Source: an uncultured Clostridia bacterium (GTDB taxonomy: Bacteria > Bacillota > Clostridia > TANB77 > CAG-508). From it: a DNA stretch of 64,000 nt. A model generated the notes under the pieces. The model was not told the origin of the DNA. It did no database searches and saw only the letters and a program-made list of their open reading frames with translations. Each line of letters starts with the position of its first letter. Position 1 is the first letter of the stretch. Shown in pieces: positions 26,657 to 52,463 of the stretch. The DNA lies in NCBI GenBank assembly GCA_934133175.1, contig CAKPAX010000002.1, forward strand, positions 18,022 through 82,021. The letters run 5' to 3'. The position numbers and the translations under genes were made by a program.

Positions 26657-29600
26657 CTACTTATTATTCATGATTTCAACAAATTGTTTTTCGTTAATTT
26701 CTTTATTTTTTAATAAATATTCAACTGCTTTTTCCGTTTTTCCTTTATTTTCTGTCAAAATTTTAATTGTTTTCTCATAACATTCTGAAAGAATTTTATT
26801 GGCTTCCTCATATATATATTTATCTATATTTTCTTCATAAGGAAATGTATATAATCCTAATTCTGACATACCATATTTTGTAATCATATTTCTTACCATT
26901 TTAGAAGCATTATTTAAATCAGTATTATTTCCAGACTCATGTTCACCTAAATAAACAATTTCATTACACATTCCACCTAAACAGCGACAAATCTTATTCA
27001 AATACTCTTGTCTACTTAAATTTTTTATTTTTTCATTATATCTAACATATCCCAATACGCCTCTGCCCTCAGCATTAATTGTTATTTTTTCTATTCCAGG
27101 ATTTTTTCCTAATATATAACTAATAGCTGCATGTCCAATTTCATGAATAGCTGTTCTTCTTTGAGATTCTTCATCTATTAAATCAGGATTTATCATATAT
27201 TCTCCTGTATATATATTTTTTATCATGTCTTGAATTGTTGGTATACATTCTTTTGTTATAGTTTTTATATCTCCTTTTTTAGTAGCTAATTTTAGCAATG
27301 TATTTTGTACAACTTTATCAACAAATCTTCCATTTCCTATGTTTTCTACATTACAGAAATACTTCATTAATCTTTTTAAATTTTCCTTTGCATCATCTTC
27401 TATTTGTAAGCCAATATCATGTATTTTTTTATAATATATTTCACAATATTCATCATCTGTATAATCAACAAAATTAAATGTATATCCAACTCTTGATGAA
27501 ATTCCTGGATTTATTTTTAAAAATTCACCCATTTCATTTTTATATCCAGCAAATACTACTACAAATTCACCTTTATGGTCTTCCATTGCTTTAATTAATG
27601 TTGCAATAGCTTCTGATCCAAAATCATATTGAGCATTATGTCCTTGAGCCAAACTATAAGCCTCGTCTATAAATAATACTCCTCCCATTGCTTTTTCAAT
27701 TACTTCTGCTGTTTTTATAGCTGTCTGCCCTACATATCCTGCAACCAAATCTTTTCTTTCTACTTCTATTAATTTATTTTCATGAATAATTCCAATATCA
27801 AATAAAACTTTAGCAATAATTCTTGCTACTGTTGTTTTACCTGTACCAGGATTGCCTGTAAAAATCATATGTAGATTTTGCCTAGGAATTACTAAATTTT
27901 GTTCTTCTGCTTTTTTAAAAAATTTTATATATTTTTCAAATTCAATAATTTTTTCTTTTATTTCTTTTAATCCAATCAAGTTATCAAGCATATCTTTTGC
28001 ATTATATTTAGAATAATTTGTATTATTTAGCTCTTCTATTGTTGGAATATCTTCTATTGTTATCATTTTTATATTTTTAGTTTCCCTTAAAGCATGTTTC
28101 ATAATTACTTCTTGTATCAATTTATCTACAAAACGCCCATTACCAAAATTTTTTTTACTACTATAATACTCAAAAATTTTTGATAAATCTTTATCTACTT
28201 TTGAGTTCATAGAATATCCCATATTATTCATCTTAAGCATAAACATTTGCTTAAGTTCATCCTCAGAGTAATCCTCAAAATTGAATGTATAACCTATTCT
28301 AGAAGAAATTCCCGGATTTATATCTAAAAATGTCTTCATTTCATCTTTATACCCAGCAAAAATAACAACAAAATTATTTTTATGGTCTTCCATTGCTTTA
28401 ATTAATGTTGCAATAGATTCTGATCCATAATCATTTTGAGAATTATGCCCTTGAGCCAAACTATAAGCCTCATCTATAAATAATACTCCTCCCATTGCTT
28501 TCTCAATTACTTCTGCCGTTTTTATAGCTGTCTGCCCTACATATCCTGCAACCAAATCTTTTCTTTCTACTTCTATTAATTTATTTTCATGAATAATTCC
28601 AATATCAAATAAAACTTTAGCAATAATTCTTGCTACTGTTGTTTTACCTGTACCAGGATTGCCTGTAAAAATCATATGTAGATTTTGCCTAGGAATTACT
28701 AAATTTTGTTCTTCTGCTTTTTTAAAAAATTTTATATATTTTTCAAATTCAATAATTTTTTCTTTTATTTCTTTTAATCCAATCAAGTTATCAAGCATAT
28801 CTTTTGCATTATATTTAGAATAATTTGTATTATTTAGCTCTTCTATTGTTGGAATATCTTCTATTGTTATCATTTTTATATTTTTAGTTTCCCTTAAAGC
28901 ATGTTTCATAATTACTTCTTGTATCAATTTATCTACAAAACGCCCATTACCAAAATTTTTTTTACTACTATAATACTCAAAAATTTTTGATAAATCTTTA
29001 TCTACTTTTGAGTTCATAGAATATCCCATATTATTCATCTTAAGCATAAACATTTGCTTAAGTTCATCCTCAGAGTAATCCTCAAAATTGAATGTATAAC
29101 CTATTCTAGAAGAAATTCCCGGATTTATATCTAAAAATGTCTTCATTTCATCTTTATACCCAGCAAAAATAACAACAAAATTATTTTTATGGTCTTCCAT
29201 TGCTTTAATTAATGTTGCAATAGATTCTGATCCATAATCATTTTGAGAATTATGCCCTTGAGCCAAACTATAAGCCTCATCTATAAATAATACTCCTCCC
29301 ATTGCTTTCTCAATTACTTCTGCCGTTTTTGGTGCTGTTTGTCCTATATATTCTGCAACTAGATCTTTTCTTTCTACTTCCACTAATTTATTTTCATAAA
29401 CCAATCCTAAATCATATAACATTTTTGCCATTATTCTTGCTACAGTTGTCTTTCCTGTACCAGGATTACCTGTAAAGATCATATGTAAATTAGATTCTGT
29501 AGTTTTTAATCCTAAGTTTTGGGCTTTTAATGTATATAATGCATATTTTTCAAATTTTTTTATATTATCTTTAACAGAATTTAATCCTATTATATTTTTT

Positions 29601-31372
29601 AGGCTTTCTTCTACTGTCTCTCTTTTATATATATTATCTGGAAAAATAAAACCTTTTTTACTAATACTATAATTAGATAAATATTTAGCTAATTCTTCAT
29701 TATAAAACGGAAAGAATTCTGCATTCATACTTACATATTCTATAAATTGTTCTTTTACTATTTTTCTAAGTTTTTGATTATTTCTCAATTTCATTGATAA
29801 CTCATTATTTAAGTTTTTGTAATATAACTCGAACAATTCGTCTATTGATAAGTTTGAGATTTTATATCTATTGTTTTGATATACAAACTTTATTTTTGTA
29901 TCTAATGATAATAATTCATCTACTGAATTTTTGTCAGATGCTATTATTACATAATCTTCATTAAATATTGATGTAATCAATTCTACTATTCTATTAACCC
30001 TTCTTAACTCTAGATATCTTGAAGTTCTTCCATTTTTAATTCTTCTATATTCATTAACAAATTCTTTTACATCTGTTAAAACATATAAATGTCTATCCAA
30101 AATTGAATTTTCTTCAACAGTCCATACATTAGTGCCAGGTTTTCCCTGTAATTCATAAGTATTTTCTAAAGCTAAATTATATAAACTCAAATACTCTGGT
30201 TCATCATTATCAATCTTTTTCCAAGCTTTTAATAATTTACAAATTTTATTAGCTAAATCAAACTTTCCACTTCCTCTATCTCCCTCTATAGAAATATGTA
30301 GACCGTTTTCTGTATTTACTTTATCAACTAATTCTTCAATGTTTTCAATTTTATTTCTGTATTCTAAAATTTTATTAATTTCTTGTATTCTGTCTTCTTT
30401 TTTCTTTTTCTCTATATTTTCAAATTGTTCTTCTTGTTTTTTTATACTCTGATTTTCTATTTCTTCTTGGTGCTCATTATAGTATTTTCTATCTTCTTCT
30501 ACCTTGCTCCATTGATTGCTTTTTTTCAAATAATAGAGATAACCTGCAACATCAAATATACAATATGGTCTAGTACAATTCCACCTATTACATTTATATA
30601 ATAACTCTTTCGTATTTCTATTAACATATATCCAATCACTTTCAGATATATATTTATATTTTAATACACTATTAACATCTTCATCATATCTAGTTTCATA
30701 TGCATTACAATTATATGGTAACCATATTTTAATATATTCTTTTTTTTCCTGTTCTACAAATACCATATCATTTTTTAACAATTCTAATGCTATATTAAAA
30801 GTTTTTTCAGGCACATTTTTTAATCCATCTTTAGGATTCCATTCAAAAGTAAAATAATCACTTTTAAAAACATTTCTTCTATATTCTTCTCTGTCTTTTA
30901 AAACATCTATTAGTAATCCTTTATTTTTTAAATATAATATATATCCAGCATAAAATTCAGGACATCTACTAAATTTACATTTAGCACAATTAACATTATT
31001 TTTATTTTCATATGCCTTAGGTGTAGTTGTAAATTTACTTTTTTTTGTTATACATTCACCATTTTCTATTTTGTTTTTTAATATTGTATCATCCACTTCT
31101 TTATCTCTTGTTTTGTAATCACATAAATTGTATATGTTATTTGAAATTTCAATTTTTTCTTTTTCATCTACTATAACTTTTTTTAAAGATATATCACCAT
31201 TAGCAAGAATTGCAATACACAATTTAATAAACTCAATAGAAGTAAATCTTAATCCATTAACTAAATTCCATTCAAAATCATAATCTACAACTTCTAAATT
31301 ATCTAATTTATTTATTTGGTTTATTATTTCCTTAGTTTCTTTTGAAAATTCATCACTTTTAACTTCACTCAT
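26657..31372 (-). CDS. 1571-aa soluble multi-AAA+ ATPase/FtsH-like protease: duplicated Cys-motif N-domain, one degenerate plus three intact SpoVK/CbbX-type AAA+ modules, C-terminal M41 zinc-metallopeptidase domain
   Basis: Three copies of GNPGTGKTTVARI Walker A with DEAY Walker B. An upstream module has the degenerate P-loop GDRGSGKF. The C-terminus has TAIHEIGHA (HExxH) and GNNTDLNNASKMVRNMITKYGMSELG matching the FtsH third-ligand region. No TM segments. Confidence 0.8.
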   Translation of the reverse strand: MSEVKSDEFSKETKEIINQINKLDNLEVVDYDFEWNLVNGLRFTSIEFIKLCIAILANGDISLKKVIVDEKEKIEISNNIYNLCDYKTRDKEVDDTILKNKIENGECITKKSKFTTTPKAYENKNNVNCAKCKFSRCPEFYAGYILYLKNKGLLIDVLKDREEYRRNVFKSDYFTFEWNPKDGLKNVPEKTFNIALELLKNDMVFVEQEKKEYIKIWLPYNCNAYETRYDEDVNSVLKYKYISESDWIYVNRNTKELLYKCNRWNCTRPYCIFDVAGYLYYLKKSNQWSKVEEDRKYYNEHQEEIENQSIKKQEEQFENIEKKKKEDRIQEINKILEYRNKIENIEELVDKVNTENGLHISIEGDRGSGKFDLANKICKLLKAWKKIDNDEPEYLSLYNLALENTYELQGKPGTNVWTVEENSILDRHLYVLTDVKEFVNEYRRIKNGRTSRYLELRRVNRIVELITSIFNEDYVIIASDKNSVDELLSLDTKIKFVYQNNRYKISNLSIDELFELYYKNLNNELSMKLRNNQKLRKIVKEQFIEYVSMNAEFFPFYNEELAKYLSNYSISKKGFIFPDNIYKRETVEESLKNIIGLNSVKDNIKKFEKYALYTLKAQNLGLKTTESNLHMIFTGNPGTGKTTVARIMAKMLYDLGLVYENKLVEVERKDLVAEYIGQTAPKTAEVIEKAMGGVLFIDEAYSLAQGHNSQNDYGSESIATLIKAMEDHKNNFVVIFAGYKDEMKTFLDINPGISSRIGYTFNFEDYSEDELKQMFMLKMNNMGYSMNSKVDKDLSKIFEYYSSKKNFGNGRFVDKLIQEVIMKHALRETKNIKMITIEDIPTIEELNNTNYSKYNAKDMLDNLIGLKEIKEKIIEFEKYIKFFKKAEEQNLVIPRQNLHMIFTGNPGTGKTTVARIIAKVLFDIGIIHENKLIEVERKDLVAGYVGQTAIKTAEVIEKAMGGVLFIDEAYSLAQGHNSQNDYGSESIATLIKAMEDHKNNFVVIFAGYKDEMKTFLDINPGISSRIGYTFNFEDYSEDELKQMFMLKMNNMGYSMNSKVDKDLSKIFEYYSSKKNFGNGRFVDKLIQEVIMKHALRETKNIKMITIEDIPTIEELNNTNYSKYNAKDMLDNLIGLKEIKEKIIEFEKYIKFFKKAEEQNLVIPRQNLHMIFTGNPGTGKTTVARIIAKVLFDIGIIHENKLIEVERKDLVAGYVGQTAIKTAEVIEKAMGGVLFIDEAYSLAQGHNAQYDFGSEAIATLIKAMEDHKGEFVVVFAGYKNEMGEFLKINPGISSRVGYTFNFVDYTDDEYCEIYYKKIHDIGLQIEDDAKENLKRLMKYFCNVENIGNGRFVDKVVQNTLLKLATKKGDIKTITKECIPTIQDMIKNIYTGEYMINPDLIDEESQRRTAIHEIGHAAISYILGKNPGIEKITINAEGRGVLGYVRYNEKIKNLSRQEYLNKICRCLGGMCNEIVYLGEHESGNNTDLNNASKMVRNMITKYGMSELGLYTFPYEENIDKYIYEEANKILSECYEKTIKILTENKGKTEKAVEYLLKNKEINEKQFVEIMNNK
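27583..30003. repeat. Three tandem in-frame 807-bp direct repeat units inside the giant gene. The middle unit is a mosaic: about 115 nt identical to one neighbour, about 690 nt identical to the other.
   Basis: The anchor ccattgctttaattaatgttgcaatag starts at 27583, 28390 and 29197, giving a period of 807 bp. Long stretches are 100% identical when read side by side. Confidence 0.85.
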
Positions 31373-36150: not shown

Positions 36151-36513
36151 ATGCTTGAATTACGGAATTTACAAAATGCTACTAAGATCTATAACTACTA
36201 TTTAGATAGTGATTCTGCTTATATTAGAGAACATTTAGATTATTGCATTAAAGATGTAATAAATCTATCTAATCTTTCTCGAATTTGTATTTTAGAATAT
36301 GCAGATACTTTAGAGTTATACTGCAATCTAATTGCATATTTTTCAGAAATTGATAAGTCTTCTTTGCTTGTAAAATTAATAATTTTATGTGCAAATAAAA
36401 TTATTAATTTCAAATTTAATCGGCTTAATACCAAAATATATCAAGCTGGAATCTGTTATTATAGCTTTTTATCTATTTTAAAACGATTAAAACAGATAAA
36501 AGCTTTATCTTAG
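36151..36513 (+). CDS. Hypothetical 120-aa protein
   Basis: Strong RBS TAGGAGGTAATTTATG; no recognisable domain. Confidence 0.4.
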   Translation: MLELRNLQNATKIYNYYLDSDSAYIREHLDYCIKDVINLSNLSRICILEYADTLELYCNLIAYFSEIDKSSLLVKLIILCANKIINFKFNRLNTKIYQAGICYYSFLSILKRLKQIKALS

Positions 36514-47777: not shown

Positions 47778-48221
47778 TTACAGCTTGAATATGTAGATTT
47801 TAACTGCCTCCTCCTCATCTTTAATCGTTACCAGAAATCTTTCATCCTGTAACAGACTTATTCCAGAATGAGGATCGAGGTTTATCCAGTCTTCATTGTT
47901 ATAAACAATTTCGCCCATTAACTGATTAGGATTTATTACATCCACACAAGAAATTTTCTTTCCTATGTTTTCCAGGTAATTGCACTCCGGGATAAGACAT
48001 CTCAAATGAGATGCAATCTCAATTCCTAGAGATCCTGTTGATTCAGCTATTGCTGAAACCACATATGCCCCTGTGCTGTACGAAACCGAATCGGTTTCAT
48101 ATACCATGTAACCTATCCGATCTCCAAGAATCTCTAAAGCTCTTTTTCCTGCATCAGTTTTATGTTCGCACCATCCGAACGCGTTGTTTGGGCAATAGCC
48201 CAATTCTTCATATTTTGCCAT
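47778..48221 (-). CDS. Hypothetical 147-aa protein with Cys pairs (YCPNNAFGWCEH, CLIPEC), foreign composition (about 38-40% GC)
   Basis: AAGGAGG RBS 8 nt before the ATG of MAKYEEL; the track ORF starts 10 codons earlier. GC is well above the local background. Confidence 0.45.
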   Translation of the reverse strand: MAKYEELGYCPNNAFGWCEHKTDAGKRALEILGDRIGYMVYETDSVSYSTGAYVVSAIAESTGSLGIEIASHLRCLIPECNYLENIGKKISCVDVINPNQLMGEIVYNNEDWINLDPHSGISLLQDERFLVTIKDEEEAVKIYIFKL

Positions 48222-48339
48222 TTTTTTGTCCTCCTTATGTTTTTTATTCATTGCTTTAATGGCAATACAAGGTTTACGAGTTACTAGTTATATTATAGCA
48301 CTTTTTGTTTATGTAGTCAAATTATGTAAATTTTTTACT

Positions 48340-48436: not shown

Positions 48437-48712
48437 TTAATATCTTAATCTTACACAGCTTTTTTTAGGCACCATAAAATCATCCACAAATGCAATCCCA
48501 AACGGATTCTTATCTGTATCGATTTCTAACAAAACATCTTCTACAGAATGCATACATCTTTGACAATAAAAGCATCTATGTATACTTTTATTCTCTCCAT
48601 ACCTAAAAAAAGTCCATACTCTTTCTCTTCCAACAATGTCCTTACATGAGCAACATTGTTTTTTGAAAATGCAATATCTTAATTTTATTGCATTTAACCG
48701 CCTTTCTTCCAA
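48437..48712 (-). CDS. Hypothetical 91-aa Cys-rich zinc-ribbon-like protein (CCSC...16...CFYCQRC), TTG start, higher GC than the host
   Basis: RBS AAGGAGG 8 nt before TTG. Two CxxC-type clusters. GC is about 35%. Confidence 0.4.
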   Translation of the reverse strand: MEERRLNAIKLRYCIFKKQCCSCKDIVGRERVWTFFRYGENKSIHRCFYCQRCMHSVEDVLLEIDTDKNPFGIAFVDDFMVPKKSCVRLRY

Positions 48713-48924: not shown

Positions 48925-51276
48925 ATGAAACAAACATATTTAAATAAATTAGAATATTTTAAAATAATAAATATACTTTCAGGTTATTGTAAAACATATG
49001 TAGGAAAAAATCTTGTAGCAAATTTGGTACCATCTAACAACAAAGATGAAGTACTAAAATTATTACAAGAAACTGAAGAAGCAGTAAATTTAACATATAG
49101 AATATCAACTGCCCCTATGTCAGAGATAGCAAACATTTCAGAAAACTTATTAACATTAGAAAGTTTTGGAGTTCTATCTATAAAATCTATTTTAGAAATA
49201 AAAAATATTTTACAATTATCACAAGAATTAAAAAATTATTTTTACACAGAAACAATTGATACCTCTTCTTTTACATTACTTGAACAATATTTTTCTAAAT
49301 TATATACAAATAAAAGTATTGTTGAAAAAATATCAAAAATAATAATTGACGAAAATACAATAGCAGATGATGCTTCTTCAAATTTAAAAAACATTAGAAG
49401 AAAACAAAGAAATTTAGAACAAGATATTAAAGAAAAATTAAACTCATTTATACATTCATCAAGTTACTCTAAATATATACAAGAAAATATAATAACAATT
49501 AAAAATGACAGATACGTAATCCCTGTAAAAGAAGAATACAGAAGTATGATAAAAGGATTTGTACATGATATATCAAGTAGTGGTTCAACTGTTTTTATAG
49601 AACCTATATCAATATTTGAAACAAATAATGATATAAATAACTTAAAAATTGAAGAACATCTTGAAATTGAAAAAATTCTTAAAGACCTATCTTTACTGCT
49701 ATCTCCTATAACAAATGAGTTAAAAACAAATATAGAAACTATAGGATATCTTGATTATATATTTGCAAAGTCAAGTTACTCTAAAGATATAAAAGGAATT
49801 ACACCAAATATTAATGATAATAAAAATATAAAATTAATAAATGCTAAGCACCCATTAATAGATCAAAATAAAGTAGTACCAATTTCAGTAAATATTGGAG
49901 AAGATTTTTCTACCTTAGTAATAACTGGTCCTAATACAGGTGGAAAAACTGTTACTTTAAAAACAATTGGACTTTTAGCGTGTATGGCATGTAGTGGTTT
50001 AAACATTCCAGCTGATGAACAATCTAGCATATTTGTTTTTGATGAAATATTTGCAGATATTGGTGATGACCAAAGTATTTCAGAATCATTAAGTACTTTT
50101 TCTGCTCATATGACAAACATTGTAGATATTGTAAATACAGCAACTGATAAAAGTTTAATATTACTAGATGAATTAGCCTCTGGAACAGATCCTTTAGAAG
50201 GTGCAAATTTAGCAATTAGTATTTTAGATTATTTTAAAAACATTCATGCACTAACCATTTCAACTACACATTATCAAGAATTAAAAGAATATGCTTTAGT
50301 TACAAAAGGTGTTGAAAACGCAAGTGTTGAATTTAATTTAGAAACTTTAAGTCCTACTTATAAACTATTAATTGGAGTTCCAGGAAAAAGTAATGCATTT
50401 GAAATAAGCAAAAAATTAGGATTAAAACAAGAAATAATAACATATGCAAAAAGTATGTTAAACAGTGATGACGTAAGTATTGAAGAATTATTAAAAAATA
50501 TATATGACAATAAAGCTAAAATTGAAGCTGAAAAGCAAGAAACAGAAAAATATTTAGAAGAAATTAAAACTTTAAAAGCTAGTCTTATACAAGATAATAG
50601 TAATTTAGAAAAACAGAAAATTGATTTAATTAATAATGCAAAAATTGAAGCAAGAAAAATTCTTCTTAATGCAAAAGATGAAGCAAATGAAATTATAAAG
50701 AATTTAAATAATTCTAGTGATATAAAAACTCAAAATAATTTAAGAAACAAATTAAATAACGATATTAATAGTATTTCTTTACAAAACTATGAAACAAAAT
50801 CAACATCAAATGCATTAGATATTTCACAAATAAAACAAAATGAAACAGTTTTTGTTGCAACTTTAAAACAAAATGGAATTGTATTATCAAATATATCAAA
50901 ATCAAATGAAGTTATTGTTCAAATTGGTAGCATAAAAATGAATATTCCTATTAAATATTTAGAAAAAGCTCATAAGGAAACTACTACAAAAAAAGATACA
51001 AAAAATTATACTAGTATTTCTAAAACTAGAAATGCAAAAACAGAAATAAATGTTATTGGTTATACTGTTGAAGAAGCTACATTTGTAGTTGACAAGTTTT
51101 TAGATGACTGTGCTTTAGCTAAAATCAAAACAGCAAGAATTGTACATGGTAAAGGTACTGGAAAGTTGAAAAATGGTATACATCAATTTTTAAAAAATCA
51201 CCCTCATGTGGCATCATATAGAATGGGAACATATGGTGAAGGTGAAATGGGTGTAACTGTAGTAGAAGTTAAATAG
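48925..51276 (+). CDS. mutS2: Endonuclease MutS2
   Basis: 783 aa with Walker A GPNTGGKT, a long coiled-coil, and a C-terminal Smr domain (INVIGYTVEEA...HGKGTG). Confidence 0.9.
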   Translation: MKQTYLNKLEYFKIINILSGYCKTYVGKNLVANLVPSNNKDEVLKLLQETEEAVNLTYRISTAPMSEIANISENLLTLESFGVLSIKSILEIKNILQLSQELKNYFYTETIDTSSFTLLEQYFSKLYTNKSIVEKISKIIIDENTIADDASSNLKNIRRKQRNLEQDIKEKLNSFIHSSSYSKYIQENIITIKNDRYVIPVKEEYRSMIKGFVHDISSSGSTVFIEPISIFETNNDINNLKIEEHLEIEKILKDLSLLLSPITNELKTNIETIGYLDYIFAKSSYSKDIKGITPNINDNKNIKLINAKHPLIDQNKVVPISVNIGEDFSTLVITGPNTGGKTVTLKTIGLLACMACSGLNIPADEQSSIFVFDEIFADIGDDQSISESLSTFSAHMTNIVDIVNTATDKSLILLDELASGTDPLEGANLAISILDYFKNIHALTISTTHYQELKEYALVTKGVENASVEFNLETLSPTYKLLIGVPGKSNAFEISKKLGLKQEIITYAKSMLNSDDVSIEELLKNIYDNKAKIEAEKQETEKYLEEIKTLKASLIQDNSNLEKQKIDLINNAKIEARKILLNAKDEANEIIKNLNNSSDIKTQNNLRNKLNNDINSISLQNYETKSTSNALDISQIKQNETVFVATLKQNGIVLSNISKSNEVIVQIGSIKMNIPIKYLEKAHKETTTKKDTKNYTSISKTRNAKTEINVIGYTVEEATFVVDKFLDDCALAKIKTARIVHGKGTGKLKNGIHQFLKNHPHVASYRMGTYGEGEMGVTVVEVK

Positions 51277-51301
51277 ATAAAAACTAAAAGAAAAAATAAA
51301 A

Positions 51302-51430
51302 TTTCTATATATTGTTTTTCTATGCCTTGTTGTCGCATCCCTCGGAATCCTTCGGGAAGGATGCTCCATTCGCCCTCCGCTGACGCTCCGGTTGGTCGCT
51401 ACGCGGCATTTAAAAAACAATATATAGAAA
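51302..51430. repeat. GC-rich (about 60% GC) 93-bp core bracketed by perfect 18-bp AT-only terminal inverted repeats (TTTCTATATATTGTTTTT ... AAAAACAATATATAGAAA). Could be a MITE-like element or a structured small RNA.
   Basis: Inverted repeats read directly. The core contains the nested hairpins GCATCC...GGATGC and CC-UUCG-GG. It lies between the convergent 3' ends of mutS2 and tsaC. Confidence 0.6.
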
Positions 51431-51458
51431 TTATTAAAATATAATATTTTATATAATT

Positions 51459-52463
51459 TTATTTAACTTCTACTACATTATCTTTGCATACATTTTTTAA
51501 TCTATTCATTATAGCTACTGCTAGTCCTCTTTCCTCTATTCCTTTAATAAGTACTATTTCTGGATTTAATTGATTTATTTTTCTTAAATTTTTAAATAAC
51601 TTTTTAGAAATTTCTTCTAAATTTTCTTTAGTTCCCATTGATATAACATTTTTAGAGTCAATTTTGTTAACATCTTCTTCTAAACAAAAAACTACTGCAT
51701 TGTTATATTTTTTAATTTCATAATTTATTTTTGAAATTACTTTTTTGTTATCATTCCCATATATTAGAACACTTTCACAATTTAAAGAATAATGTTTTAG
51801 TTTTTGACTTGGTAATAATTTATTATTTTGTTCATAATCTTTCTCAATATTTGGAGTTATTTTTAATATATCGTCATAAGTTACAGCCCCTGGTCTTAAT
51901 ATATGCACAACATTATCAATTACTTCTACAATTGTTGATTCTAAACCTATTTTACATTCTCCTCCATCAACTATATAATCAATATCTTCTACAAAGTCTA
52001 ATTTTATATCATCAAAATTTGTCCCACTTGGTCTACCAGATATATTAGCACTTGGTGCAGAAATTGGTACTCCAGCCTTACTTATTATTTCTAATGCAAT
52101 TTTATTATCTGGAACTCTAACTCCAACTTTATTTTTTCCAGCAGTTACAATATCTGGCACTATATCTTTTTTGTTTAATATAATTGTAAATGGACCCGGA
52201 AAAAATTTTTCCATTAACTTATATTCTAATTCTGTTATATTTTGTGTAATTTTTTCTATCATATTAATATTATTTACTAATAAGTTTATTGGGTTTTTAT
52301 AGTCTCTTTTTTTAATATCATATAATTTTTTTACAGCATTAGCATCTAATCCATTTGTTCCAATTGCATATACTGTTTCTGTTGGAAATATTACTATTTT
52401 TCCTTCTTTTATTTTTTCTCCTACTTCTTCTAAATCTTTTTCATTATTTATATATTTATACAT
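51459..52463 (-). CDS. tsaC: L-threonylcarbamoyladenylate synthase (Sua5/TsaC family with C-terminal SUA5 domain)
   Basis: YrdC-domain motifs (VIFPTETVYAIG; SAPSANISGRPS) plus a C-terminal extension of about 130 aa. Confidence 0.8.
   Translation of the reverse strand: MYKYINNEKDLEEVGEKIKEGKIVIFPTETVYAIGTNGLDANAVKKLYDIKKRDYKNPINLLVNNINMIEKITQNITELEYKLMEKFFPGPFTIILNKKDIVPDIVTAGKNKVGVRVPDNKIALEIISKAGVPISAPSANISGRPSGTNFDDIKLDFVEDIDYIVDGGECKIGLESTIVEVIDNVVHILRPGAVTYDDILKITPNIEKDYEQNNKLLPSQKLKHYSLNCESVLIYGNDNKKVISKINYEIKKYNNAVVFCLEEDVNKIDSKNVISMGTKENLEEISKKLFKNLRKINQLNPEIVLIKGIEERGLAVAIMNRLKNVCKDNVVEVK

What the first reader, a model, noticed from the sequence alone, without database searches (positions are those of the whole stretch)
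51302..51430. GC-rich hairpin-dense core flanked by perfect 18-bp AT-only inverted repeats between convergent genes
TTTCTATATATTGTTTTT and its exact reverse complement bracket a 93-bp core of about 60% GC in a roughly 25% GC genome. The core contains GCATCC...GGATGC enclosing a CC-UUCG-GG tetraloop motif, and a second GC-rich arm. This is far more elaborate than a bidirectional terminator needs to be. It is consistent with a MITE-like mobile element with TIRs, a stable structured small RNA (the UUCG/GGAAGGA motif loosely recalls SRP domain IV but the ends do not), or a recombination site.
Basis: seen in the sequence. Interest (0 to 1): 0.55.

Follow-up and report, generated by a model that had tools for sequence, protein, structure and literature searches.

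The report
Small dispersed palindromic repeat that flips
The GC-rich hairpin between mutS2 and sua5 is one copy of a small, non-coding, probably mobile palindromic repeat found at six or more places in one uncultured gut Clostridia species, and the intergenic block that holds it occurs in both orientations among strains; it is a new example of a familiar kind of bacterial "junk" repeat, not a known RNA gene.

Summary
The perfect inverted repeat is 20 nt (51300-51319 / 51413-51432). It encloses a 93-nt core of 59% GC in a 25.7% GC window. No Markov shuffle reaches 18 nt.

It is not a single-copy terminator and matches no Rfam family. Near-identical cores occur at six or more unrelated intergenic loci of the same species; core identity between loci is 93%. 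Two of these loci lie on one 490-kb scaffold. A sister species has empty sites at both loci I could compare, and each empty site is a plain hairpin.

Within the species, core diversity (0.029) equals diversity at third codon positions (0.023-0.031), so the core evolves about neutrally. The arms are invariant.

Helices P1, P2 and P3 carry compensatory double changes. The outer 6-7 nt of each arm are locus-specific yet still complementary. No target-site duplication is visible.

At both loci with population data, the whole intergenic cassette is found in both orientations among near-identical strains. The flip is bounded by short inverted repeats at or next to the ends of the two convergent genes, not by the element's own arms.

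Best reading: a lineage-restricted MITE/ERIC/REPIN-like palindromic repeat sitting in hairpin loops and prone to repeat-mediated inversion. It is a new member of a known kind, of moderate interest.

The parts
48925..51276 (+). mutS2 (context gene, 783 aa); its last codons form the left arm of the outer inverted repeat
   Evidence: ORF; Pfam MutS_V, MSSS and Smr domains
51258..51275 (.). Outer inverted repeat, left arm: TGTAGTAGAAGTTAAATA. It covers codons VVEVK and most of the mutS2 stop. One boundary of the strain-to-strain inversion lies here.
   Evidence: I13; orientation variants
51277..51299 (.). AT-rich spacer 1 (A-rich). It travels with the core when the cassette is inverted. On the minus strand it supplies a U-rich run just after the long stem.
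51300..51319 (.). Left arm of the element (helix P1 5' side): AATTTCTATATATTGTTTTT. The inner 14 nt are homologous between copies; the outer 6 nt are locus-specific.
51320..51412 (+). Conserved asymmetric GC-rich core: 93 nt, 59% GC, about 93% identical between copies at different loci.
51322..51333 (+). P2 5' side (ATGCC.TGT.GT), pairing with 51398-51409 (GC.ACG.GGCAT). One copy (L013b) has the compensatory change ATACC/GGTAT.
51335..51364 (+). P3 hairpin: GCATCC-CTCGGA-ATCC-TTCGGG-AA-GGATGC. The outer stem is GCATCC/GGATGC here and GCAGCC/GGCTGC in all other loci, a compensatory change.
51365..51397 (+). C-rich, weakly structured 3' half of the core. It holds most of the substitutions between copies and between strains.
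51413..51432 (.). Right arm of the element (helix P1 3' side): AAAAACAATATATAGAAATT
51433..51458 (.). AT-rich spacer 2; it travels with the core when the cassette is inverted
51460..51477 (.). Outer inverted repeat, right arm: TATTTAACTTCTACTACA. It covers codons VVEVK and most of the sua5 stop on the minus strand. The other inversion boundary lies here.
   Evidence: I13
51459..52463 (-). sua5/tsaC-like gene (context, 334 aa)
   Evidence: Pfam Sua5_yciO_yrdC and Sua5_C

Best explanation
The feature is one copy of a lineage-restricted, non-coding, non-autonomous dispersed palindromic repeat of about 133 bp. It is MITE-, ERIC- or REPIN-like: two roughly 20-bp AT-rich inverted arms around a conserved 93-nt GC-rich core.

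The family spread recently within one uncultured gut Clostridia species. Copies lodge in intergenic 'safe' spots, mostly in or next to hairpins between convergent genes. In this window the cassette occupies the loop of an ancestral hairpin made from the last codons of mutS2 and sua5.

Because the copy lies inside nested inverted repeats, the whole intergenic cassette has been inverted by recombination between the outer repeats. Both orientations now segregate among strains.

Shown here: multicopy status, empty sites in a sister species, neutral-like core diversity, invariant arms, compensatory changes, and inversion with its breakpoints.

Inferred: (a) the element is or was mobilised in trans by an unidentified enzyme, probably into hairpin loops or palindromic targets and without an obvious target duplication; (b) the perfect arms, their locus-specific extension and the compensatory changes come from constraint on hairpin formation in a single strand and/or from template-switch correction of quasi-palindromes, not from an RNA function; (c) any effect on the host is incidental, such as a large hairpin acting as a transcription or RNA-decay barrier for the two convergent genes.
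For: Multicopy and dispersed.
- The core 21-mer hit two contigs of one MAG at unrelated loci.
- A core pattern hit six metagenome contigs, and a second copy on L013 was found by blastn.
- In total there are six or more loci: mutS2/sua5, ylmH/rimI, L009, L013a, L013b and AspRS/HD.
- The sua5 and ylmH copies lie on one scaffold, 212 kb apart.

Empty sites in a sister species.
- In L008 the two stop codons are 3 nt apart inside a 14-nt gene-end hairpin.
- In L028 the 18-nt gap lies within a compact bidirectional terminator hairpin that runs into the rimI stop.

Narrow distribution.
- The 21-mer hit no other species among 185,579 species genomes.
- The covariance model found nothing in about 141 kb from relatives.
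- Plasmids, phages and viral contigs gave nothing.

Recent spread rather than ancient conservation.
- Cores at different loci are 92.6% identical, inner arms 83.5%, outer arms 44%, which is about random.
- Among 14 strains at this locus, pi(core) = 0.029, against 0.031 and 0.023 at third codon positions. Spacers give 0.048 and the arms 0.000.

No coding potential. The only ORF through the core loses its ATG and its frame in L013b, and it has no protein homologue.

No Rfam family matches.

Hairpin constraint. 95.6% of cells are paired, 9 pairs have changes on both sides, and 0 of 500 shuffles reach the observed covariation score.

Inversion.
- mutS2/sua5 locus: window orientation in 13 contigs and the inverse in 7. 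This includes 9 versus 1 among strains with an identical Sua5 protein.
- ylmH/rimI locus: about 50:50 among strains with an identical YlmH protein.
- Spacers and stop codons move with the core, so the breakpoints lie in the outer repeats of 18 nt and 13 nt.

Precedent. The Delihas 2011 review (PMC3184786) describes bacterial MITEs as TIRs around a core that folds into a long stem-loop, compensatory changes in bcr1, and a bias of SPRITE and REP elements towards convergent gene ends.
Against: - No direct-repeat target-site duplication is visible. Only a 'TA' inside the TATATA run could serve, and that is uninformative.
- No transposase, RAYT, reverse transcriptase or recombinase gene lies next to any copy or in the 64-kb window. 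No parent insertion sequence with matching ends was found. Mobility is therefore inferred from distribution, not shown.
- The locus-specific outer 6-7 nt of each arm are perfectly complementary, which classical cut-and-paste MITE insertion does not explain.
- Two clean compensatory double substitutions in short internal helices (P2, P3) are what one expects of a functional RNA or single-stranded DNA fold.
- Neutral-like diversity was measured at one locus only, with few segregating sites.
Confidence: 0.6

Rival explanations
1. A multicopy structured RNA, either a small RNA gene family or a cis-acting 3'-UTR element. P1 would be a variable closing stem and P2/P3 a conserved core. The RNA would be made from its own promoter or by read-through from the convergent genes.
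For: - Strong predicted folds on both strands, with z-scores of -6 to -7.
- Compensatory double changes in P1, P2 and P3, with 0 of 500 shuffles reaching the covariation score.
- A core far richer in GC than the genome, as in tRNA and other structured RNAs.
- The conservation pattern of a variable P1 and a conserved core resembles that of riboswitch or ribozyme families.
Against: - No Rfam hit near any gathering score. The weak TwoAYGGAY hit of 24.6 bits against a cut-off of 43 is not reproduced on another copy.
- Core diversity within the species equals third-codon-position diversity.
- The family is absent from relatives, including both orthologous sites of the sister species.
- There is no conserved promoter, and no conserved T-run on either side.
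- Both orientations relative to the neighbouring genes persist at intermediate frequency.
- The 3' half of the core has no conserved pairing.
Confidence: 0.17
2. A programmed invertible cassette (inverton). A site-specific recombinase would flip the intergenic block to switch which convergent gene faces the hairpin-plus-U-run, or which strand of the core is transcribed.
For: - Both orientations occur at intermediate frequency at two of two loci with population data, even among strains with identical flanking proteins.
- The cassette is asymmetric. In the window the A-rich spacer 1 puts a U-run after the long stem on the core-minus strand only. At ylmH/rimI a small hairpin with T7 sits only on the 5' side of the core. 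A flip therefore moves a terminator-like signal from one gene to the other.
Against: - The inversion boundaries are locus-specific gene-end repeats (18 nt here, 13 nt at ylmH/rimI). Beyond the motif TTAAAT they do not match each other, and they are not the conserved arms. A dedicated recombinase would be expected to act on conserved sites.
- Each orientation carries its own linked substitutions and indels, so flips look old or rare rather than rapid.
- No recombinase gene lies near any copy. The only one seen belongs to an unrelated prophage about 3 kb or more away in L016.
- No promoter was found in the cassette.
- The Logan contigs run through the outer repeat without branching, so no mixed orientation is seen within those samples.
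Confidence: 0.08
3. A locally evolved, unusually elaborate bidirectional terminator, single-copy and of no wider significance.
For: It lies between convergent genes that have no other predicted terminator. On the minus strand the long stem is followed by a U-rich run.
Against: - It is not single-copy: six or more loci carry the same core.
- Other copies sit beside separate, ordinary terminators (L013a, L009), between divergent genes (L015) or between tandem genes (L013a).
- No consistent T-run follows the stem in other copies.
- The sister species manages with a 3-nt gap at this junction.
Confidence: 0.03

Closest known systems
Bacterial MITEs, for example Correia/NEMIS of Neisseria, RUP of Streptococcus pneumoniae and bcr1 of the Bacillus cereus group (review PMC3184786)
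   Same: Under 200 bp and non-coding. Terminal inverted repeats surround a core, and the whole folds into one long stem-loop. Copies are dispersed and intergenic, with presence/absence differences between close relatives. As in bcr1, compensatory changes keep the fold.
   Different: No direct-repeat target duplication, and no cognate insertion sequence identified. The arms extend into locus-specific sequence as perfect inverted repeats. The core is very GC-rich in a 26% GC genome. Known copy number is low (six or more). The whole host intergenic block is inverted between strains.
ERIC/IRU elements of enterobacteria (own knowledge: roughly 127-bp imperfect palindromes in intergenic regions, found in either orientation)
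   Same: Similar size, imperfect-palindrome architecture, intergenic position near gene ends, either orientation, no coding capacity and an unknown means of spread.
   Different: No sequence relationship and a different phylum. Here a long asymmetric, non-palindromic core lies between the arms.
REP/BIME elements and REPINs mobilised by RAYT transposases
   Same: GC-richer palindromic repeats that lack target duplications and are enriched between convergent genes (PMC3184786). Their hairpin form is what matters, so the arms co-vary. They promote recombination.
   Different: REPs are 20-40 nt hairpins with a conserved 5' tetranucleotide, and REPINs are two inverted REPs. Here the conserved part is a 93-nt asymmetric core and the arms are AT-rich. 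No RAYT gene was seen, and the full genome could not be searched.
Invertons: invertible DNA segments flanked by inverted repeats (for example PMC11892184 and bioRxiv 10.1101/2023.03.11.532203)
   Same: A short segment bounded by inverted repeats is found in both orientations in natural populations of a gut bacterium. The repeats overlap coding sequence, as in intragenic invertons.
   Different: No recombinase or promoter was found. There is no evidence of switching within a clone. The boundaries are ad hoc repeats made of gene ends. Both proteins are unchanged by the flip.
GC clusters and double-hairpin elements of AT-rich fungal mitochondrial genomes (own knowledge)
   Same: Short GC-rich hairpin-forming mobile repeats that stand out in a very AT-rich genome, with no coding capacity.
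   Different: Eukaryotic organelle elements, much shorter, without long AT-rich arms. This is an analogy only.

Membership tests
MITE (miniature inverted-repeat transposable element) | Terminal inverted repeats flanking a short non-coding core | tested here: met
   Perfect 20-nt arms in the window and arms of 19-22 nt in all copies. The only ORF is disrupted in L013b.
MITE (miniature inverted-repeat transposable element) | Several dispersed copies, with presence/absence differences between relatives | tested here: met
   Six or more loci; empty sites in L008 and L028.
MITE (miniature inverted-repeat transposable element) | Direct-repeat target-site duplication flanking the TIRs | tested here: not met
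   The flanks just outside the conserved 14 nt are inverted repeats, not direct repeats, in every copy. Only a 'TA' within the TATATA run could be a duplication, and that cannot be judged.
MITE (miniature inverted-repeat transposable element) | A cognate autonomous insertion sequence with matching TIRs | not testable with these tools
   No transposase in the window or in the held loci. Arm-like motifs occur only at chance level outside the elements. The whole genome was not available to search.
REP/REPIN with RAYT | Hairpin units of 20-40 nt with a conserved 5' tetranucleotide, paired as inverted doublets, plus a RAYT gene in the genome | tested here: inconclusive
   The architecture differs: a 93-nt asymmetric conserved core with AT-rich arms. 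No RAYT-like ORF was recognised by eye in the 64 kb (only six ORFs were scanned against Pfam). The rest of the genome was not searched.
TwoAYGGAY RNA (RF01731) | Score at or above the gathering cut-off, and two hairpin loops carrying AYGGAY | tested here: not met
   24.6 bits against a cut-off of 43, aligned only through the AT stem. The hit is not reproduced on the L010 copy. No AYGGAY motif on either strand (read).
   No SRP family appears even at E-values up to 10.
Inverton / phase-variable invertible element | A segment bounded by inverted repeats and found in both orientations | tested here: met
   the boundaries are the 18-nt and 13-nt outer repeats.
Inverton / phase-variable invertible element | Both orientations within one clonal population, driven by a site-specific recombinase | not testable with these tools
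   No read-level data were available. The Logan contigs show no branching at the outer repeat. No recombinase gene lies nearby.
Intrinsic (Rho-independent) terminator | A compact GC-rich stem-loop followed directly by a T-run | tested here: not met
   The consensus scan finds none in 51000-51700. The stem next to the only U-rich run is a 20-bp A-U helix closing a 93-nt insert, and other copies have no consistent T-run.

The most novel reading that the evidence does not exclude
The cassette could be a reversible, one-directional 3'-end module. Its conserved GC-rich core plus long stem, with a U-run or small terminator on one side only, would be flipped between two convergent housekeeping genes through inverted repeats built from their own last codons. 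The flip would switch which gene is efficiently terminated and which reads antisense into its neighbour. That would be phase variation acting at gene 3' ends rather than at promoters, carried by a mobile repeat family.
Probability: 0.08. Interest if true: 0.7.

Novelty: new member of a known kind. Interest (0 to 1): 0.36.

Why it matters
Small dispersed palindromic repeats are well described in proteobacteria, pneumococci and the Bacillus cereus group. They are hardly described in uncultured, very AT-rich gut Clostridia.

This family is a compact case in which several things can be read directly from metagenome assemblies:
- recent spread within one species;
- apparent preference for hairpin loops between convergent genes;
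- perfect, locus-specific extension of the arms;
- repeated inversion of whole intergenic blocks through repeats made of coding gene ends.

It has practical consequences. It breaks or mis-joins assemblies, as seen in contigs that end inside the core and in the ylmH-element-HD hybrid junctions. Inverton-finding software would flag it as a false 'inverton'.

If the inversion proved to be regulated, it would extend phase variation to gene 3' ends.

Tried and rejected
- **Rfam.** Gathering and permissive E-value scans on two copies gave only sub-threshold, non-reproducible hits: TwoAYGGAY, snoRNA and miRNA models.
- **Public collections.** Plasmid and phage BLAST in distant mode found nothing. Four viral-contig scans with core patterns found nothing.
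- **Harvesting copies through the spurious ORF.** The 40-aa ORF through the core had no candidates in the protein database. Coding is rejected in any case, because L013b loses the ATG and the reading frame.
- **Diverged copies in relatives.** The covariance model R1 found none in about 141 kb from related species. It also found no copies in the held loci of the host species beyond those already known.
- **Solo arms or empty arm-only hairpins.** Matches to the arm motif outside the elements are at chance level.
- **Pairing in the 3' half of the core.** Candidate pairing between columns 85 and 103 holds in only 5 of 10 copies, so it is rejected.
- **Choosing a functional strand.** G-U versus C-A asymmetry is indecisive, because each strand has its own good fold.
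- **Target-site duplication.** None was found. Palindromic flanks make direct and inverted repeats hard to tell apart only for the dinucleotide TA.
- **Promoter or terminator in the cassette.** Nothing above shuffle expectation.
- **Assembly artefact as the cause of the flips.** Rejected. The outer repeats (18 and 13 nt) are shorter than any assembly k-mer, and each orientation carries linked substitutions and swapped stop codons.
- **Literature.** One search for Clostridia GC-rich MITEs returned nothing.

Full report
**1. The observation**

The sequence is as described. The perfect inverted repeat is slightly longer than reported. AATTTCTATATATTGTTTTT lies at 51300-51319 and its reverse complement at 51413-51432, separated by 93 nt (I6).

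The core (51320-51412) is 59% GC in a window of 25.7% GC. Only a tRNA gene reaches comparable local GC anywhere in the 64 kb. None of 60 Markov-1 shuffles of the window produced a perfect inverted repeat of 18 nt or more with a 20-400 nt spacer. Both strands fold far better than shuffled controls, with z-scores of -6.1 and -7.2.

The flanking genes are convergent. mutS2 is 48925-51276 (+) and a sua5/tsaC-type gene is 51459-52463 (-).

It consists of the last five codons (VVEVK) and most of the stop codon of both genes.

**2. It matches no known RNA family**

Rfam at gathering thresholds finds nothing here. A permissive scan gives only a 24.6-bit TwoAYGGAY alignment against a cut-off of 43 bits. 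That alignment rests on the AT stem and does not recur on another copy. No AYGGAY motif is present. No SRP model matches.

**3. It is a dispersed repeat**

One genome-collection scan with a core 21-mer returned two contigs of a single MAG (CAKPIA01, uncultured Clostridia). Both hits lie at unrelated loci: after rimI, and at a second junction.

A metagenome scan with a gapped core pattern returned six contigs. BLAST revealed a second copy on one of them.

The distinct loci are:
- mutS2/sua5;
- ylmH/rimI;
- L009;
- L013a, downstream of uvrA;
- L013b;
- AspRS/HD.

The sua5 and ylmH copies lie on one 490-kb scaffold, 212 kb apart. The window species and the CAKPIA-type organism are therefore one species. 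The matching cluster sizes of their proteins agree with this.

Four of the six loci are between convergent genes, one is between tandem genes and one is between divergent genes. No copy has a transposase, reverse transcriptase or recombinase as a neighbour, and none was recognised in the window.

**4. Distribution and age**

A sister species has empty sites at both loci that could be compared; its genes are 77-90% identical to the window at the nucleotide level.
- At mutS2/sua5 its two stop codons are 3 nt apart. The gene ends form a 14-nt hairpin, GTAGAAATTAAATA-GAT-TATTTAATTTCTAC.
- At ylmH/rimI the 18-nt gap lies within an ordinary bidirectional terminator hairpin that runs into the rimI stop.

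A covariance model built from ten copies finds no further or diverged copies. It was run on 183 kb of held loci, which includes the sister-species locus L008, and on 112 kb plus 13 kb from relatives. Plasmid, phage and viral collections hold nothing similar.

Between loci, the core is 92.6% identical, the inner 14 nt of the arms 83.5%, and the outer 6-7 nt only 44%, which is about random for this composition.

Within the species, 14 strains at the mutS2/sua5 locus give these nucleotide diversities:

| Region | Diversity (pi) |
|---|---|
| Core (93 nt) | 0.029 |
| Third codon positions, sua5 | 0.031 |
| Third codon positions, mutS2 | 0.023 |
| Spacers | 0.048 |
| Arms (40 nt) | 0.000 |

The primary sequence of the core therefore drifts at about the neutral rate. 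The high similarity of cores at different loci then points to recent common ancestry, meaning spread after the split from the sister species, rather than to strong conservation. Only the arms are held constant.

**5. Structure**

The consensus fold has these elements:
- a 19-20 bp AT helix (P1);
- an interrupted helix P2, ATGCC.TGT.GT with GC.ACG.GGCAT;
- a hairpin P3, GCATCC-CTCGGA-(ATCC)-TTCGGG-AA-GGATGC;
- a C-rich, poorly paired 3' half.

In the ten copies, 95.6% of pair cells are standard pairs and nine pairs have changes on both sides. None of 500 column shuffles reaches the observed covariation score, and slid registers collapse to 36-51% pairing.

The clean cases are these:
- P3: GCATCC/GGATGC at this locus, against GCAGCC/GGCTGC at all other loci.
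- P2: ATGCC/GGCAT, against ATACC/GGTAT in L013b.
- P1: G-C to A-U in L013a and L015.

The evidence is real but thin, amounting to a few events among related sequences. Each strand has its own good fold, so the working strand cannot be named.

The only ORF through the core is not coding. L013b loses both its ATG and its frame, and it has no protein homologue.

**6. An unexplained feature of the arms**

The outer 6-7 nt of each arm differ completely between loci:

| Copy | Outer arm |
|---|---|
| window | AATTTC |
| L009 | AAGCTTC |
| L010 | AAGGAT |
| L013a | TAGTTAA |
| L015 | AAAATC |
| L013b | AATTGTC |

Each is nevertheless perfectly complementary to its partner. These are inverted repeats, not direct repeats, so they are not target duplications.

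Weaker, locus-specific inverted symmetry continues further out at several loci: 27 nt at 81% in L009, 34 nt at 82% in L013a and 38 nt at 84% in L015.

Two explanations fit, and I cannot separate them.
- The element inserts into the loop or centre of pre-existing hairpins and palindromes. Both empty sites are hairpins. In the window the cassette sits exactly where the 3-nt loop of the sister species' gene-end hairpin lies.
- Replication template-switching at quasi-palindromes (established knowledge from work in E. coli; inference here) perfects and extends the arms. The same process could generate 'compensatory' changes without any selection.

**7. Inversion**

Oriented by the flanking genes, contigs of the same species carry the whole intergenic block in either orientation.

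At mutS2/sua5 the window orientation is seen in the window, L001, L002, L007, L029-L033 and L035-L038. The inverse is seen in L003-L006, L012, L014 and L034. Among ten strains whose Sua5 protein is identical, nine have one orientation and one has the other.

The AT spacers and even the two stop codons (TAG and TAA) move with the core. The breakpoints therefore lie inside the 18-nt gene-end repeat, and both proteins are unchanged.

At ylmH/rimI the two orientations are about equally frequent among strains with an identical YlmH protein. The flipped unit is again the whole cassette. Here it is bounded by a 13-nt perfect outer repeat next to the ylmH stop and inside the rimI end (L026 I5), not by the 20-nt arms.

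Each orientation carries linked substitutions and indels. The flips are therefore real events and not assembly artefacts, since the repeats are shorter than any assembly k-mer. They are not obviously rapid.

Two independent assemblies also join the ylmH flank to the HD-gene flank through a hybrid element (L011, L044). This suggests recombination between copies at different loci, or else repeat-induced chimeras.

**8. How it most likely works**

The best-supported account (confidence about 0.6) is a selfish or neutral, non-autonomous palindromic repeat. It spread recently in one lineage, lodges in hairpin-rich gaps between convergent genes, is constrained mainly to remain a hairpin, and provokes recombination because it creates nested inverted repeats.

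Host effects are inferred and probably incidental. There is no canonical terminator in 51000-51700. The 133-nt hairpin, followed on the minus strand by UUUUAUUUUUUCUUUU, may therefore act as the transcription or RNA-decay barrier for sua5 in the window orientation and for mutS2 in the inverse orientation. Other copies lie beside separate hairpin-plus-T-run terminators and lack a consistent T-run.

The rivals are a functional structured RNA family (0.17), a programmed inverton (0.08) and an in-situ elaborate terminator (0.03, contradicted by the multicopy result).

**9. Comparison with known systems**

It works like a MITE/ERIC/REPIN-type repeat. The Delihas 2011 review (PMC3184786) gives the MITE definition, the compensatory changes in bcr1, and the bias of SPRITE and REP elements towards convergent gene ends.

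Strict MITE membership fails on one defining feature: no direct-repeat target duplication is found. A second feature, a cognate insertion sequence, could not be tested. 'MITE-like' is therefore the correct label.

It also satisfies the descriptive definition of an inverton, being bounded by inverted repeats and found in both orientations. The mechanistic parts of that definition were either not testable or not found.

**10. Verdict**

It is a previously undescribed family of a known kind, with one uncommon twist: cassette inversion through repeats made of coding gene ends. Interest is 0.36.

Noticed in passing
window 51258-51275 / 51460-51477; L008 10990-11025: Two unrelated convergent genes, mutS2 and sua5, end in the same five codons (VVEVK, then the stop). 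These codons form a perfect 18-nt inverted repeat. In the sister species the same genes end in VEIK with stops 3 nt apart, so the coding ends themselves form a 14-nt hairpin. Sua5 homologues in the clade natively end in ...NYIEI(K), so the two ends seem to have been homogenised.
   Followed up: partly
L011 4300-5023; L044 1500-2204: Independent assemblies join the ylmH flank to the upstream region of an HD-domain gene through a hybrid element. The right arm in L044 equals the arm of the AspRS/HD copy in L015. This is either a chromosomal rearrangement by recombination between copies or a repeat-induced chimera.
   Followed up: partly
L001 end, L002 end, L004-L006 ends, L012 start, L047/L048 ends: Many Logan and metaSPAdes contigs stop inside the element. 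L001 ends exactly 30 nt after a polymorphic C/T site. This is consistent with de Bruijn graph branching caused by the repeat or by strain mixtures, so the element fragments assemblies.
   Followed up: partly
L010 1836-1866; L026 7797-7836: At the ylmH/rimI locus the left arm can also pair with an upstream 11-nt fragment (AACACTATATA). Together with the following T7 run this forms a small terminator-like hairpin. The hairpin stays on the 5' side of the core in both orientations.
   Followed up: partly
window 26657-31372 (-): A 1571-aa protein with three AAA ATPase domains and a C-terminal M41 (FtsH-type) peptidase domain, which is an unusually large FtsH-like architecture.
   Followed up: no
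window 48437-48712 (-), 47778-48251 (-), 36151-36513 (+): Three small ORFs of 91, 157 and 120 aa with no Pfam match. The 91-aa ORF is cysteine-rich and lies just upstream of mutS2.
   Followed up: no
L016 7530-9239 and neighbours: One strain carries a prophage-like insertion with a large serine recombinase near mreB, about 3 kb from the tsaE-tsaB-rimI operon. It is absent from L010 and L026 and appears unrelated to the element.
   Followed up: no
L008 10997-11006 and L028 4916-4925: The two empty-site hairpins of the sister species share the 10-mer ATGTAGAAAT, although one is coding and the other intergenic. This may be chance.
   Followed up: no
L017 6030-6125; L020 4987-5088; L013 5908-6002: Other local GC-rich islands (54-56% GC) occur in related AT-rich contigs. 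The first two lie upstream of a threonyl-tRNA synthetase gene and may be T-box leaders. None matches the element model.
   Followed up: no
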